A stretch of 64,000 bases of DNA from a virus. Taxonomy: Duplodnaviria; Caudoviricetes. The stretch lies in the IMG/VR virus record IMGVR_UViG_3300001580_000011, positions 1 through 64,000 of that record. One strand, 5' to 3'. Both the position numbers and the translations under genes were made by a program. Positions 23,279-44,847 of the stretch are shown here, in pieces. The number at the start of each line of letters is the position of its first letter. The first letter of the stretch is position 1. The notes beneath the pieces are model-generated. The model was given only the letters and a program-made list of their open reading frames with translations, was not told the origin of the DNA and did not search any database.

Positions 23279-23606
23279 TGCTAAATCGTTATCTGTGTTT
23301 AGAGTAGAATATGAATTGATGAAGGATATGTCCGCGTGGACAGCTTTCATCGTAGCTTGGTCGCATGAGGAAGCATTGAGTACTCTTGCAAGAAGAGTCG
23401 GGCCGCACCATGTTATGACTTCTGGATTCCAAAGCCGTGTTGATGCTGTTTCCGATGAAGTAAGGTTCTGGATCGCCGAAAAGACTTTGGGAAAGCCAAA
23501 GGAAAAGAAGGCAGTGGAGATTAAAAAGGTGGAAAAAACAGAAGAACCAGAAGAAAATCAACCAGTTGTGGGGACAGAAAAAAAAGTTTCTCTTAAGAGA
23601 AAATAA
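23271..23606 (+). CDS. Hypothetical protein
   Basis: GGAGG RBS before ATG 23271. Confidence 0.6.
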   Translation: MSSAKSLSVFRVEYELMKDMSAWTAFIVAWSHEEALSTLARRVGPHHVMTSGFQSRVDAVSDEVRFWIAEKTLGKPKEKKAVEIKKVEKTEEPEENQPVVGTEKKVSLKRK

Positions 23607-23620
23607 TTTACAAAAAATAT

Positions 23621-23650
23621 GTTTACATTTGATGTTAGATAGGGTATAAT
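23621..23650 (+). promoter_or_regulatory. Early-type promoter of the Y-RNA/Ro60 unit
   Basis: GTTTACA-N17-TATAAT, same as other promoters in the window. Confidence 0.8.
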
Positions 23651-23768
23651 AATATCTAACACGGTGACAAACCGGAGATTCTCCCTTGTACTATTTGTCA
23701 TCTTTAACTATTAAATCCTATAAATGGATTTGGCCGACGGGGGGAGACAAGTCGGCTGTCGATAATAA

Positions 23769-23857
23769 CTATCAGTGGCGTAGGACGAGGTTACTTCATA
23801 CATTTGTCAAAATGACCGGGCTTCGGCCCATTTCCTTTTCCGCCTGTTCCCTGATAG
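23769..23857 (+). ncRNA. Y-RNA-like unit 1
   Basis: Terminal stem CTATCAG/CTGATAG; GTGGCGTA, TTACTTCA and TGTTCC conserved blocks; internal cUUCGg hairpin; upstream of Ro60. Confidence 0.7.
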
Positions 23858-23871
23858 CATTATATTGAAAA

Positions 23872-24002
23872 TAAATGGTGGCGTAGGACGCAGTTACTTC
23901 ATTTGATAGATGAGAAGGCGGGTTCAACTCCCGTACACCCCAACGAATATGGGGTGTGTTCCGGCGAACAAACAATTTCTGTTTCCGCTTGTTCCCCATT
24001 TA
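23872..24002 (+). ncRNA. YrlA-like Y RNA (unit 2) with circularly permuted tRNA-like domain
   Basis: Stem TAAATGG/CCATTTA; T-arm GCGGG-TTCAACT-CCCGT; loop-closed acceptor-like stem ACACCCCA/TGGGGTGT; D-like arm GTTC/GAAC. Confidence 0.8.
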
Positions 24003-24012
24003 CTGATATTTT

Positions 24013-24116
24013 GAGGGTGGCGTAGAACGAGATTACTTCATCGGGAACCAGAAAGTGATCCACTGTAAAGAGGAATCCACGCTGGTATAAAAGATCTTGT
24101 TCGTCTGTTCCCCTTC
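24013..24116 (+). ncRNA. Y-RNA-like unit 3
   Basis: Same conserved blocks; inner stem GAACGAGAT/ATCTTGTTC; cargo stem ACCAG/CTGGT. Confidence 0.7.
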
Positions 24117-24128
24117 TACTAATAATAT

Positions 24129-24194
24129 AAGGGTGGCGTAAAGTGGGCTTACTTCACTCCAAATGACATGATGGCTTACTTGATTGTTCCCCTT
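24129..24194 (+). ncRNA. Y-RNA-like unit 4 (minimal)
   Basis: AAGGG/CCCTT stem, GTGGCGTA, inner stem AAGTGGGC/GCTTACTT, TTACTTCA, TGTTCC. Confidence 0.7.
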
Positions 24195-24233
24195 TTTATA
24201 AAAAAATAATTTGTACATATGGAGGTATTTGAA

Positions 24234-25592
24234 ATGGCGACCACAAAGAAATTCCTTTCAAACCAAAACAAAACCCATGAGGGTGCTCCAGCATACCTTG
24301 ATCTAACTCCCGAGCAGAAGCTCAGGCGATCAGTTCTTTCCTGCATGTTATGGGAAAGGGAAGCCTACGAGAGCGGTGATACCATCGCTAATAGAATCAA
24401 AACCTTTATTCCGCTAGTAGAACCTGAAAAGGTGGCTAACCTTGCGATTGAAGCCCGTGAGAAGATGAAACTTCGCCATGTTCCGCTTTTTATCGTCAGG
24501 GAGATGGCCCGGATCAATTCCCATAAGTCACTTGTCGCTTCAACACTCGAAAGAGTTATCCAGAGAGCGGACGAACTTACGGAGTTTTTGGCTCTCTACT
24601 GGATGGACAAAAGGCAACCACTTTCCAAGCAGGTAAAGAAAGGTCTTGGAAAAGCCTTCTATAAATTCAACGAATACCAGTTTGCTAAATACAATCGTAA
24701 TGATACTGTAAAATTTCGCGATGTATTGTTCCTTACACATCCAAAGCCTCGTAATGATGATGAGGATATTCTTTGGAAGAAAATCATCGCAAACAAATTA
24801 GCGACACCTGAAACTTGGGAATCCCGAGCGGCCGCTGGTATGGATAAGAGAACAAATTTCGAAACTTTGCTTCGTGAGAACAAGTTAGGTGCTCTTGCAC
24901 TTATTCGTAATCTTCGTAATATGACCGCGGCGGGTGTTCCAGAGAGCCTTATCCGTGACGGAATCAACCATATGAAAACCGAAAAGATACTACCTTTCCG
25001 TTTCATCACTGCTCAGCGATACAGCGAGTCTTTCACGAAAGGTCTTGAAAATGCCATGTTTAAGTGTCTTGAGGGTCATGAGATGTTAGAAGGTAAAACA
25101 CTTCTACTTATTGATGTTTCTGGTTCGATGACCATGTTACTTTCAGCAAAGTCCGATCTTACAAGATTGGATGCTGCTACGGGTTTGGGCGTTCTTCTTC
25201 GTGAAATTTGTGAAGATGTTGTCATCTATTCCTTCTCTGGCAAAACAGTGAAGGTTTCCGATGGCCACGGTTTCGATCTTATTCATAAAATCACCAATAG
25301 TCAGCCAAATAACAGTACATATTTGGGTGAAGCCATCAAAAAAGTAAACGTCAGTGAAGAGTATGATCGCATCATCGTTATTACGGATGAGCAGTCTCGC
25401 GACCGTGTTGGTTCGCCTAAAGGTATGGGATATGTTATCAATGTTGCTTCTGCCCAAAATGGTGTAGGATACGGTGTTTGGAACCATATCGACGGTTTTT
25501 CAGAAAACGTAATTTCATATATTATGGAATACGAAAAGGAATTTGTGCACAAGCAATTGTCACAAAATGTAAAACATATTAATAATTTATAA
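24234..25592 (+). CDS. rsr: Ro60/Rsr TROVE-domain RNA-binding protein with C-terminal vWA
   Basis: THEGAPA, RADE, KY.R, HPKP, TWE, ALIRNLRN, LPFRF, DVSGSM MIDAS, ITDEQ; GGAGG RBS before ATG 24234. Confidence 0.92.
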   Translation: MATTKKFLSNQNKTHEGAPAYLDLTPEQKLRRSVLSCMLWEREAYESGDTIANRIKTFIPLVEPEKVANLAIEAREKMKLRHVPLFIVREMARINSHKSLVASTLERVIQRADELTEFLALYWMDKRQPLSKQVKKGLGKAFYKFNEYQFAKYNRNDTVKFRDVLFLTHPKPRNDDEDILWKKIIANKLATPETWESRAAAGMDKRTNFETLLRENKLGALALIRNLRNMTAAGVPESLIRDGINHMKTEKILPFRFITAQRYSESFTKGLENAMFKCLEGHEMLEGKTLLLIDVSGSMTMLLSAKSDLTRLDAATGLGVLLREICEDVVIYSFSGKTVKVSDGHGFDLIHKITNSQPNNSTYLGEAIKKVNVSEEYDRIIVITDEQSRDRVGSPKGMGYVINVASAQNGVGYGVWNHIDGFSENVISYIMEYEKEFVHKQLSQNVKHINNL

Positions 25593-25606: not shown

Positions 25607-25630
25607 AACTGCCGGATTAATCCGGCAGTT
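25607..25630. repeat. Perfect 24-bp palindrome
   Basis: AACTGCCGGATTAATCCGGCAGTT. Confidence 0.9.
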
Positions 25631-25725: not shown

Positions 25726-26580
25726 GTGTCAAAACTGTTGACTTGGAACGCACATAAAATAATCAACGATTCATTAAAAGGATCGCCTATCATAAATAAC
25801 ACACTTCCCGACGGGGATGCTCTTTTTCTTGATTATCTCCCGCCTACATCAACAGATTTCTTACAACAGGTGGAAGTTATCAAACATTATGTCAAGAAAA
25901 AGATAAACATCTTTATCTATGACAAAACACTTTCGATTAAATCTGATGAAGCAGAATGGTTGAAACATCAAAAGATTAAATTGTATGAACCGGCCTTGAA
26001 GTATAGAGACGGTTTCAAATACCTTCCCTTGTTTTGTCCTGTTCTTCATACCCTATCTACCATAAAACTTAATACAAGTGATCCTAGACCCGTTTCTGTG
26101 GGTTATAAGGGTATTATAGAAGATAAGGTGAAGTCCTTTGAGAAGTATTATGTAGAAATGGGTAAAAATTATCCTTCTACAACCATTCAATATAATAATC
26201 CAACCGGTTTAGATAAATCCAAAATAAACGACTATACTAATTTTAATGTCACGGAAAATACGGAACTGGAATATAAAAATATGAAATGTATGGTCCTTTT
26301 GGGCTCCTATTTTGATTATTCCATCGGATATTTACCCGACATCTTTACACCACTTTCACAAAATGTTATAATATTATTACCGGAAGAACATAGATACTAT
26401 CATTCTCTATTCAGTGATACGATTGTAAGGGGGGTTTCCGATATATCCTACTTCGAAAGTACATACGATTATACTTATATTGGATATATTGTTTCCATAT
26501 ACGAAAGGATTGAAAAATATTTTCCAGAAATGACGTTACAATATACACTTGATGTTATAAAAGAGGAATTGTGTTTATAA
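25726..26580 (+). CDS. Hypothetical protein
   Basis: 284-aa ORF, GTG start, GGGAG RBS. Confidence 0.6.
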   Translation: MSKLLTWNAHKIINDSLKGSPIINNTLPDGDALFLDYLPPTSTDFLQQVEVIKHYVKKKINIFIYDKTLSIKSDEAEWLKHQKIKLYEPALKYRDGFKYLPLFCPVLHTLSTIKLNTSDPRPVSVGYKGIIEDKVKSFEKYYVEMGKNYPSTTIQYNNPTGLDKSKINDYTNFNVTENTELEYKNMKCMVLLGSYFDYSIGYLPDIFTPLSQNVIILLPEEHRYYHSLFSDTIVRGVSDISYFESTYDYTYIGYIVSIYERIEKYFPEMTLQYTLDVIKEELCL

Positions 26581-44046: not shown

Positions 44047-44847
44047 TCAATCATACCGACTAACAACAGACATCGGTTGTGAGTTATAAAAGACATACTT
44101 GCAAAGTTTATTGACAGTATCCCGATCAGGTGTATGAGGAAGAACGGAATTTTCATACCATTTCTCAAAAAGTTTATCAAATTCCTCAACTCTCTGCATC
44201 AATTCCTCATATGACCATAATCCATTTCTAACCTGTAACAACAAATCTGCATCCGGTCTTGGAAATGTCATATGTCCGGTAAGAAGAAGCTCCTTACCTT
44301 CTGTCATCAACCTGTAAAGGTGCATGGCGTGTTTAGTATCATACCCAAACTTCTGTTCAAGAGCAAACCTTTTGGGATTACGGTTTTCTTTCCATAACAT
44401 CCAAGCCTTCAATTCCTCTGTATCAAAAGGTACTTTACCAAGCAACCATTCCCTATGGTTCTTCAACCTCTTGAGCTGTGCGTGAGCATAACCTGTGAAG
44501 GTATGCTTTGCCTTTGTAGAAAGAAAAGACTTTCTATGAAAAACAACATACTCCCATAAGTCGGAAGTTGCAAGCCACATCTTTTTCGGGACAAATAATA
44601 ATTCTACCATATTTGGATTACTATTTAAACATAATTTGAGAAACTTACGAAATTCATAGTAAACTACGTCATTCATCTTATCTTCAAACTGCTCTGGCCC
44701 GCTTTCAAGGCCAACCCAGTAATCATCGGGAGACATAAAAACCCCTCGTTCATCATAATCCGAATCGGGTGTATTGGTTCCATATAAATGAGAACCAGCA
44801 ACCGTCCTATATAATAGCACAAAATTTTTTGGTAACGTAACAGTCAT
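44047..44847 (-). CDS. Pol-beta-type nucleotidyltransferase (RlaP/Nuc-transf-like)
   Basis: GSHLYG...PDSD.D.RGVF, NPN.VELL, YD.K.AMH.YRL. Confidence 0.85.
   Translation of the reverse strand: MTVTLPKNFVLLYRTVAGSHLYGTNTPDSDYDERGVFMSPDDYWVGLESGPEQFEDKMNDVVYYEFRKFLKLCLNSNPNMVELLFVPKKMWLATSDLWEYVVFHRKSFLSTKAKHTFTGYAHAQLKRLKNHREWLLGKVPFDTEELKAWMLWKENRNPKRFALEQKFGYDTKHAMHLYRLMTEGKELLLTGHMTFPRPDADLLLQVRNGLWSYEELMQRVEEFDKLFEKWYENSVLPHTPDRDTVNKLCKYVFYNSQPMSVVSRYD

What the first reader, a model, noticed from the sequence alone, without database searches (positions are those of the whole stretch)
23769..25592. Four-unit modular Y-RNA array co-transcribed with a phage Ro60
Seen: behind a GTTTACA-N17-TATAAT promoter, four units (about 89, 131, 104 and 66 nt) share invariant blocks GTGGCGTA, TTACTTCA and (C/T)TGTTCC. 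Their flanking stems differ in sequence but keep pairing (CTATCAG/CTGATAG, TAAATGG/CCATTTA, GAGGG/CCCTT, AAGGG/CCCTT; inner GGACGAGG/CCTTTTCC, GGACGCAG/CTGTTTCC, GAACGAGAT/ATCTTGTTC, AAGTGGGC/GCTTACTT), i.e. covariation inside one genome. Each carries a different cargo: two small hairpins, a tRNA-like domain, a branched stem, or almost nothing. Known: Ro60/Rsr binds the terminal stem of Y RNAs encoded next to it, and the other end tethers effectors such as PNPase. Inference: one phage Ro60 is loaded with four interchangeable adaptor or decoy RNAs, a small library of RNP variants, possibly for counter-defence or to redirect host RNases.
Basis: partly seen in the sequence, partly recalled or inferred. 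Interest (0 to 1): 0.9.

Follow-up and report, generated by a model that had tools for sequence, protein, structure and literature searches.

The report
Phage Ro60 gene with four Y RNAs
A large uncultured phage carries a gene for the ring-shaped RNA-binding protein Ro60, preceded by four small RNA genes that share one conserved "handle" but have different bodies; this is a real Ro60/Y-RNA locus, but of a kind already known and common in phages and soil bacteria.

Summary
Window 23769-24197 holds four tandem units. Each has an outer stem, UGGCGUA, an 8-bp inner stem, UUACUUCA, a variable body, the returning inner-stem strand, YUGUUCC and the closing outer stem. The pattern GGCGTA-N8-TTACTTCA occurs 4 times against 0 expected. 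A TTTACA-17-TATAAT promoter lies upstream. The gene downstream encodes a true Ro60: Pfam TROVE, a fold matching 13 solved Ro60 chains, and closest to Thermus phage phiLo Ro60, which binds two upstream Y-like RNAs.

The stems covary strongly, both in 27 units I aligned and in 110 independent units (91% paired against 56% shuffled). A covariance model of the handle finds 1 to about 10 units beside homologous Ro60 genes in about 30 viral loci and about 75 of 80 bacterial loci, always on the gene's strand.

Unit 2 is a YrlA-type tRNA mimic. Units 1, 3 and 4 are YrlB-like hairpins.

Several co-transcribed Y RNAs per Ro60, phage cases included, are published, and this scan has noted similar arrays on other DNA. 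What appears undescribed is the breadth of this handle subfamily, which Rfam's YrlA model misses. RNA processing, Ro60 binding and any counter-defence role are untested.

The parts
23622..23650 (+). Sigma-70-type promoter TTTACA-17 nt-TATAAT
   Evidence: 11 of 12 matches. It is the only strong + strand site before the Ro60 gene. The same position in relative L001 holds TTTACA-17-TATAGT.
23651..23768 (+). Structured 118-nt leader of three hairpins, function unknown
   Evidence: Fold. Conserved in sequence and partly in pairing with L001 2471-2592. No Rfam match.
23769..23857 (+). Y unit 1: handle plus two small hairpins, one a GGGC-UUCG-GCCC tetraloop hairpin
   Evidence: Model R1 65.3 bits. 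L001 unit 1 has the same layout with a UACG tetraloop.
23872..24002 (+). Y unit 2: handle plus a tRNA-like body. T-arm 23919-23933, closed 8-bp stem 23935-23957, mini D-arm 23958-23969.
   Evidence: The T-arm matches the tmRNA/tRNA T-arm. R1 84.8 bits. At 131 nt it has the modal length of T-arm units in other arrays.
24011..24118 (+). Y unit 3: handle plus a 54-nt irregular hairpin body; paired outer stem 24013-24017 with 24112-24116
   Evidence: R1 62.6 bits.
24127..24197 (+). Y unit 4: minimal unit, handle plus a 17-nt body, followed by U5
   Evidence: R1 53.8 bits. 60-80 nt is one of the two common size classes.
24234..25592 (+). Ro60 (TROVE + vWA) gene, 452 aa; RBS GGAGG at 24221-24225; the mechanical ORF starts at 24219
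   Evidence: Pfam TROVE 54.1 bits. phrog_850 E 2.6e-45. phiLo Ro60 9KOP E 3.7e-28, with DVSGS and ITDEQ conserved. Model pLDDT 83.6. The top 13 PDB fold matches are Ro60 chains.
25609..25628 (+). Perfect 8-bp hairpin 17 nt after the stop codon, without a U tract; possible 3' end of the operon
   Evidence: Read from the sequence. Not called by the terminator scan.

Best explanation
This is a Ro60/Y-RNA operon of a large phage. One promoter drives a leader, four Y RNAs and the Ro60 mRNA. The four RNAs are probably cut out of the precursor at the AU-rich 9-14-nt spacers.

Each RNA closes its 5' and 3' ends into the same handle: an outer stem, an asymmetric conserved core (UGGCGUA facing G-Y-Y-UGUUCC), an 8-bp inner stem and UUACUUCA. 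The phage Ro60 ring binds this handle, as Ro60 binds GGUCCGA or GNCGAA in known Y RNAs. The distal body differs between units. Unit 2 is a YrlA-type tRNA mimic. Units 1, 3 and 4 are YrlB-like hairpins with single-stranded loops.

By analogy with Deinococcus, Salmonella and Thermus phage phiLo, the bodies would dock or gate partner proteins, most likely host PNPase or other RNases and, for unit 2, tRNA-handling enzymes. One Ro60 would then form several RNPs that reshape RNA turnover during infection.

Shown here: the elements, their covariation, their linkage to Ro60 genes, and the protein's identity. Inferred: co-transcription, processing, Ro60 binding and any partner.
For: Motifs are far above chance.

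The 15 stem pairs are 91.1% paired against 58.1% in shuffles, 15 of 15 pairs show double changes, and the covariation score is 0.893 against 0.243. Slid controls reach at most 0.21. In 110 non-training units the figures are 91.0% against 55.6% and 0.897 against 0.222.

G.U pairs outnumber A.C 24 to 2 in the inner helix, so the + strand RNA is the folded species.

Model R1 hits only these four sites in the whole 98-kb record.

Of 118 viral loci picked by the bare 14-nt RNA pattern, 24 have R1 units. 23 of those 24 have a Ro60 homologue next to the units on the same strand, against 0 of the 94 others.

The 80 bacterial Ro60 loci give 290 R1 hits, all on the + strand and all upstream of the gene.

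Protein identity rests.

Literature: the motif GNCGAAN0-1G, YUAY at nt 22-25, and YrlA plus YrlB cut from one precursor (PMC4201824). phiLo Ro60 binds two upstream Y-like RNAs and host PNPase (PMC12135203).
Against: There is no expression data: no RNA run holds this stretch, so discrete RNAs are unproven.

Rfam YrlA (RF02553) gives no hit on the window even at E<=10.

The handle differs from GNCGAA at one base, U for A. Neither tested pairing scheme for the conserved core shows compensatory change.

Outer-stem pairing was one of my criteria for picking the 27 training units. Only the inner helix and the 110-unit set are free of that bias, and the 110-unit alignment is fitted to the model.

No PNPase, RtcB or other obvious partner gene lies beside the locus.
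Confidence: 0.8

Rival explanations
1. The array is not a set of separate RNAs. It is a cis-acting 5' untranslated region of the Ro60 mRNA, with repeated Ro60-binding sites that feed back on translation or stability of the message, or a set of attenuators.
For: No promoter-like site lies between the units and the gene. Unit 4 ends in a stem followed by U5, 20 nt before the RBS. In the 80 bacterial loci all units lie upstream of the gene.
Against: In L028, L050, L072, L115, L130 and L004 the units lie downstream of the Ro60 gene. Bacterial arrays extend more than 2 kb, and in some loci a different gene sits between the array and Ro60. In characterised relatives the equivalent RNAs are processed and stable (PMC4201824). 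The U5 after unit 4 is absent in the closest relative, L001.
Confidence: 0.1
2. The RNAs act without Ro60, for example as free tRNA-mimic decoys or sponges, and sit next to the gene only because they share its regulation.
For: The bodies, not the handle, carry the tRNA-like features. Ro60 binding was not tested.
Against: The part conserved across about 400 units is the handle, not the body. The handle occurs essentially only beside Ro60 genes. It resembles the mapped Ro60-binding motif (PMC4201824; PMC12135203).
Confidence: 0.05
3. The units are decayed remains of a phage tRNA gene cluster.
For: Unit 2 keeps a T-arm. Ro60 genes in L002-L005 and other phages sit inside tRNA clusters. Database records annotate some units as tRNAs.
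Against: ARAGORN and Rfam find no tRNA in the window. The conserved, covarying handle is not a tRNA feature. Three of the four units have no tRNA-like part. Selection on pairing is evident.
Confidence: 0.03
4. The conserved blocks are DNA sites, such as operators or iterons, for a DNA-binding protein.
For: Three short invariant blocks repeat four times within 430 bp.
Against: The orientation is strictly strand-specific relative to Ro60 in every locus. Compensatory changes keep RNA pairing. G.U is favoured over A.C 24 to 2 in the inner helix, which has no meaning in duplex DNA.
Confidence: 0.02

Closest known systems
Thermus phage phiLo Ro60 with Yrl1 and Yrl2 (PDB 9KOP, 9L5Y; PMC12135203)
   Same: A phage Ro60 with TROVE ring, vWA domain and MIDAS motif. 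It is the closest solved relative (E 3.7e-28; best fold match). It has several Y-like RNAs next to the gene, each a stem, a bulge with a CGAA-type motif, then another stem. The RNAs scaffold host PNPase.
   Different: Only 26-29% protein identity. phiLo has two described RNAs against four here. The motif is CGAA against CGUA. The phiLo RNAs lack the UUACUUCA and UGUUCC blocks and the tRNA-like body. R1 matches neither described upstream phiLo RNA; it finds a weak site just downstream of the gene (18.1 bits).
Bacterial Rsr with YrlA and YrlB (Salmonella, M. smegmatis; phage YrlAs of Chen et al. 2014, PMC4201824; Rfam RF02553)
   Same: Same strand and adjacent to Ro60. A 5' motif of GNCGAA type, an inner stem, then YUAY at about nt 22-25. 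One RNA has a permuted tRNA-like body (T-arm, closed stem, D-arm) and there are additional hairpin-type Y RNAs. They are made from one precursor.
   Different: RF02553 does not detect the window units. It scores their CcrColossus relatives at 30-42 bits against a cut-off of 69. The handle has an extra outer stem with an invariant UGUUCC bulge. The D-arm of unit 2 is reduced to 4 bp plus a 4-nt loop. There are four units rather than one or two.
Deinococcus radiodurans Rsr with Yrn1 and Yrn2, and the Ro60-Y RNA-PNPase (RYPER) machine
   Same: Several Y RNAs upstream of rsr are transcribed as a polycistron. The handle binds Ro60 and the distal module tethers PNPase.
   Different: The Deinococcus polycistron also contains a true tRNA. 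No PNPase link has been shown for this phage. The sequences are unrelated outside the motif.
Human Y1, Y3, Y4 and Y5 RNAs
   Same: One Ro60 serves four clustered Y RNAs that share a binding stem and differ in their loops.
   Different: The human genes are independent Pol III genes, have no tRNA-like module, and are not linked to the Ro60 gene.

Membership tests
Ro60 / Rsr protein (TROVE + vWA) | TROVE domain above Pfam's cut-off | tested here: met
   PF05731 54.1 bits against a cut-off of 23. 56.1 bits summed in the six-frame search.
Ro60 / Rsr protein (TROVE + vWA) | Helical-repeat ring followed by a vWA domain, as in solved Ro60 structures | tested here: met
   AlphaFold model with pLDDT 83.6 and pTM 0.76. 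Foldseek ranks 1-13 are all Ro60 chains (phiLo, Xenopus, human, Deinococcus) at TM 0.56-0.67.
Ro60 / Rsr protein (TROVE + vWA) | MIDAS motif D-x-S-x-S plus a downstream T-D in the vWA domain | tested here: met
   DVSGS and ITDEQ align with the same residues of phiLo Ro60. D294, S296, S298, T384 and D385 are invariant in 24 homologues.
Y RNA (general) | Encoded beside the Ro60 gene on the same strand | tested here: met
   The units end 37 nt before the start codon. The same holds in every related locus.
Y RNA (general) | 5' and 3' ends pair into a stem that carries a conserved Ro60-binding motif (GGUCCGA or GNCGAA) on its 5' strand | tested here: inconclusive
   The terminal and inner stems are supported by covariation. 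The motif is GGCGUA, one base away from GNCGAA; relatives have GGUGAA or GGCGCA. The pairing of the core itself is unresolved.
Y RNA (general) | A stable small RNA bound by Ro60 in vivo | not testable with these tools
   No RNA run holds the stretch. Needs RIP, Northern blot or EMSA.
YrlA (Rfam RF02553) | Score at or above the gathering threshold of 69 bits | tested here: not met
   No RF02553 match on window 23550-24300 even at E<=10. Related CcrColossus units score 42.3, 30.5 and 29.9 bits.
YrlA (Rfam RF02553) | Permuted tRNA-like body: T-arm, closed acceptor-like stem, D-arm | tested here: inconclusive
   Unit 2 has a T-arm CGGGUUCAACUCCCG, an 8-bp closed stem, and only a 4-bp/4-nt mini D-arm. 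Units 1, 3 and 4 have no such body.
YrlA (Rfam RF02553) | YUAY directly after the inner stem, at about nt 22-25 | tested here: met
   UUAC at nt 23-26 of all four units, compared with PMC4201824.
Handle-RNA family defined here (model R1) | Outer stem, UGGYGWA, 8-bp stem, YUACUUC, body, stem, G-Y-Y plus WRWUCC, outer stem; located next to a Ro60 gene | tested here: met
   The four units score 53.8-84.8 bits, but they were in the training set. Independent support comes from about 400 non-training hits beside Ro60 genes.

The most novel reading that the evidence does not exclude
The handle-plus-swappable-body design is a natural adaptor library. Each unit would bring a different host factor (PNPase, another RNase, tRNA-modifying or tRNA-cleaving enzymes) to the one phage Ro60 ring, or would act as a decoy for it, and the set would turn over quickly under pressure from host RNA-targeting defences. 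The closest relative, at 71% Ro60 identity, already has three units with different bodies. At family level, this Rfam-less handle class would be a major, undescribed branch of Ro60 biology, with arrays of up to about 10 units in phages, Acidobacteriota and Alphaproteobacteria.
Probability: 0.2. Interest if true: 0.7.

Novelty: new member of a known kind. Interest (0 to 1): 0.42.

Why it matters
The role of the distal modules of bacterial and phage Y RNAs, especially the tRNA mimic, is still open. Loci like this one are natural experiments: one Ro60 and one constant handle, with several different bodies that change quickly between relatives.

The handle consensus and the covariance model built here could seed an Rfam family. 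That family would correct annotations where units are currently called tRNA genes or terminators in CcrColossus and in a Brevundimonas phage.

The model also points to cultured systems where the biology can be tested: CcrColossus with Caulobacter, crAss001 with Bacteroides, and Xanthomonas phage Sopo. For this particular window the result is an ordinary member of that class.

Tried and rejected
- Rfam at gathering thresholds on the window found nothing, and ARAGORN found nothing.
- Megablast of the locus against 50,697 phage records gave no match.
- The bare 14-nt pattern scan of viral contigs gave mostly chance matches: 94 of 118 loci had no unit. These served as negative controls.
- A single-protein scan of genome contigs found no relative. 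The alignment-based scan did.
- I tested two pairing schemes for the conserved core: GGC with the three bases after the inner stem, and GGCGUA with UGUUCC. Neither shows compensatory change, so the core is left as an asymmetric loop.
- The downstream ORF 25726-26580 has no Pfam or PHROG family. It is conserved only in the syntenic relative L001, so it is not a general partner.
- Sequencing runs: no RNA holder is listed for this stretch. The DNA holders are hydrocarbon-metagenome runs, probably the source sample. No reads were laid.
- The leader was compared with L001 only. Two sequences are too few to establish a structure.
- No complex prediction was run, because the tool does not take RNA partners.

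Full report
**What is in the sequence.** Window 23769-24197 contains four head-to-tail units separated by AU-rich spacers of 9-14 nt. Each unit reads, 5' to 3':
- a 5-7-nt outer-stem strand;
- UGGCGUA;
- an 8-nt inner-stem strand;
- UUACUUCA;
- a variable body of 35, 77, 54 or 17 nt;
- the complementary inner strand;
- three bases (GCC, GCU, GUC or GAU);
- UGUUCC;
- the complementary outer strand.

GTGGCGTA occurs four times in 64 kb and only here (0.62 expected). GGCGTA-N8-TTACTTCA occurs four times against 0 in 100 shuffles. A TTTACA-17-TATAAT site lies at 23622-23650. It is followed by a 118-nt leader that folds into three hairpins. No other strong + strand promoter-like site precedes the next gene.

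**The gene is a Ro60.** The ORF at 24219-25592 probably starts at ATG 24234, behind GGAGG. Several lines identify it.
- It has a Pfam TROVE domain (54.1 bits, cut-off 23) and matches phrog_850 "RNA-binding protein" (E 2.6e-45).
- Its closest solved relative is the Ro60 of Thermus phage phiLo (9KOP and 9L5Y, E 3.7e-28 over residues 10-391). The MIDAS residues DVSGS and ITDEQ align.
- A model built from 24 homologues has pLDDT 83.6. Its 13 best PDB fold matches are all Ro60 chains from phiLo, Xenopus, human and Deinococcus, at TM 0.56-0.67.
- Three of the four basic residues reported to contact RNA in phiLo Ro60 (K141, K142, R178; PMC12135203) align with K, K, K here. R137 aligns with S. This mapping assumes an 8-residue numbering offset that I inferred from the alignment.

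The record is an IMG/VR virus contig of 98,256 bp, rated 38% complete. Its neighbours look like phage replication and recombination genes (RecA-like, SMC-like, SbcD-like). "Phage Ro60" is therefore correct.

**The units are structured RNAs.** I aligned 27 units: the window's 4, 3 from L001, 3 from L052, 6 from Caulobacter phage CcrColossus, 6 from Brevundimonas phage Gurke and 5 from Xanthomonas phage Sopo.
- The 15 proposed pairs are 91.1% paired against 58.1% in shuffles. All 15 pairs show changes on both sides. The covariation score is 0.893 against 0.243, and slid controls reach at most 0.21.
- I had used outer-stem pairing to delimit units, so that helix is partly circular. The inner helix was not used for selection, and it is 91.7% paired.
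- A covariance model (R1) then collected 110 distinct non-training units. They give 91.0% paired against 55.6%, and 0.897 against 0.222, with slid controls at most 0.134. That alignment is fitted to the model, which favours the structure, but the margin is large.
- G.U pairs outnumber A.C 24 to 2 in the inner helix. The folded molecule is therefore RNA of the + strand, not DNA and not the antisense strand.
- The conserved core (GGCGUA facing GYY-UGUUCC) gave no compensatory evidence for either pairing scheme I tried. I describe it only as an asymmetric conserved loop or bulged helix.

**Linkage to Ro60 genes.**
- R1 finds only the four units in the whole 98-kb record.
- A scan of IMG/VR for the bare 14-nt RNA pattern returned 118 loci. 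Of these, 24 have R1 units at E<1e-5.
- 23 of those 24 encode a Ro60 homologue next to the units on the same strand. None of the other 94 does. The exception, L041, has its units at the very start of the contig.
- Known phages with homologous Ro60 genes carry the units too: CcrColossus 8, Gurke 6, Sopo 5, Rhizobium phage TM39 5 and Microcystis phage Mvi-JY20 2. crAss001 has weaker matches in the 900-nt gap after its gene.
- A profile scan of bacterial genomes found at least 588 homologues. They are mostly Acidobacteriota, with some Alphaproteobacteria, on contigs of up to 2.5 Mb.
- In the best 80 of these loci R1 gives 290 hits at E<=1e-4, all on the gene's strand and all upstream. By my reading of the table, about 75 of the 80 loci have hits.
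- Arrays hold from 1 to about 10 units. In six viral loci they lie downstream of the gene.

**Composition of arrays.** Across 112 viral units the lengths are bimodal, with 34 units at 60-80 nt and 40 at 120-140 nt. 52 units carry a T-arm-like hairpin, with a median length of 133 nt. A typical array has one tRNA-like unit of about 131-137 nt plus short hairpin units. The window's set of 89, 131 (T-arm), 108 and 71 nt fits this pattern.

Unit 2 has a T-arm CGGGUUCAACUCCCG (also picked up by the tmRNA model), an 8-bp closed stem and a reduced D-arm. This is the YrlA order. The closest relative is L001, with 71% Ro60 identity, the same gene order, the same promoter position and the same leader. 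It has three units whose bodies only partly correspond to those in the window. Bodies therefore turn over faster than the handle.

**Relation to what is known.** Chen et al. 2014 (PMC4201824) described Y RNAs beside Ro60 in 254 bacteria and 22 phages. Their features were a 5' GNCGAAN0-1G motif thought to bind Ro60, YUAY at nt 22-25 and a permuted tRNA-like domain. They also found second, hairpin-type Y RNAs (YrlB, Yrn2), and processing of several Y RNAs from one precursor in M. smegmatis and D. radiodurans.

The window units share that plan. GGCGUA starts at nt 9 and UUAC falls at nt 23-26. A mycobacteriophage YrlA locus (Sparky) has the same topology with different motif letters. The phiLo study (PMC12135203) showed that a phage Ro60 binds two neighbouring Y-like RNAs through a CGAA motif and assembles with host PNPase. 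It also cites CcrColossus among phages with known Y-like RNAs.

Rfam's YrlA model does not detect the window units. It scores the CcrColossus units below its threshold (42, 31 and 30 bits against 69). I found no paper that describes long arrays or this handle consensus, but Chen's supplementary tables are not held here. Earlier notes of this scan report similar Ro60-like gene plus RNA-array loci on other DNA.

**Mechanism and limits.** The most likely reading is one transcript from the 23622 promoter, processed into four Y RNAs plus the Ro60 mRNA. The common handle would load each RNA onto the Ro60 ring, and the bodies would engage different partners. PNPase is the precedent, and tRNA enzymes are candidates for unit 2.

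Only the anatomy, the covariation, the linkage and the protein identity are shown here. Transcription, processing, binding and partners are inferred. No RNA data set holds this stretch. The counter-defence idea is compatible with the phiLo authors' suggestion, but it is untested.

**Verdict.** The finding is real and correctly identified. It is a new member of a known kind. The family-wide picture has moderate interest as a resource and as a route to testing what Y-RNA modules do.

Noticed in passing
window 23651-23768; L001 2471-2592: The 118-nt leader between the promoter and unit 1 is conserved with the closest relative. Shared blocks are CACGGUGA, CGGAGAYUCYCCCUUG and GACGGGGGRA, and three hairpins have partly compensatory changes. 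The UCYCCC and GGGGGA segments are complementary. It has no Rfam match and its role is unknown (processing signal, regulator or a fifth RNA).
   Followed up: partly
L124 (CcrColossus) 1261-2461; L125 (Gurke) 1594-2430: GenBank features overlap Y-like units. These are 'tRNA-Gln' (L124 1673-1740), a 'rho-independent terminator' (L124 1600-1615) and 'tRNA-Ser' (L125 2296-2370). They are probably mis-annotations of the tRNA-like bodies.
   Followed up: partly
L132 (Thermus phage phiLo) 3986-4051: R1 gives a weak match (18.1 bits, E 0.005) with GUACUUC and UUUCC blocks 13 nt after the stop codon of the phiLo Ro60 gene, overlapping the start of annotated phiLo_25. The published Yrl1 and Yrl2 lie upstream, so this could be an unrecognised third Y-like RNA.
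   Followed up: no
L133 (Bacteroides phage crAss001) 3911-4510: The 900-nt gene-free gap after the crAss001 Ro60 gene (gp96) holds several AT-rich units with UAGUGUA-N8-UUACUUCA, some with T-arm-like hairpins. Only the first scores well with R1 (27.4 bits). This is a cultured system where the RNAs could be tested.
   Followed up: partly
L170 827-2218 and 4552-6264: In several Acidobacteriota loci a gene of about 1.4 kb sits between the RNA array and the last unit plus Ro60. In L170 it is a BCS1-like AAA+ ATPase (PF08740 + PF00004), and a DEAD/HRQ1-type helicase lies downstream. AAA+ and vWA pairs are common partners, so this may be a Ro60 cofactor in bacteria.
   Followed up: partly
L002, L003, L004, L005, L130, L131: In these phages the Ro60 gene sits inside a tRNA gene cluster. 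L002 and L003 each show about 20 tRNA genes within the 7.3-kb locus. A permuted tmRNA lies nearby in L002, L003 and L125, and a standard tmRNA in L052.
   Followed up: no
window 44047-44847 (- strand); L001 7168-7350; L122 12044-12313: A nucleotidyltransferase (phrog_388, E 6.5e-64) is encoded 19 kb from the Ro60 gene in the window. Its homologue lies only about 3 kb downstream of Ro60 in L001 and within 6 kb in L122. Halovirus HGTV-1 also has a nucleotidyltransferase two genes after its TROVE gene (L135).
   Followed up: partly
window 24219-24236: The mechanical ORF starts at ATG 24219. That ATG overlaps the GGAGG box at 24221-24225, while ATG 24234 lies 8 nt behind it and aligns with the start in L001. 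The protein is more likely 452 aa than 457 aa.
   Followed up: yes
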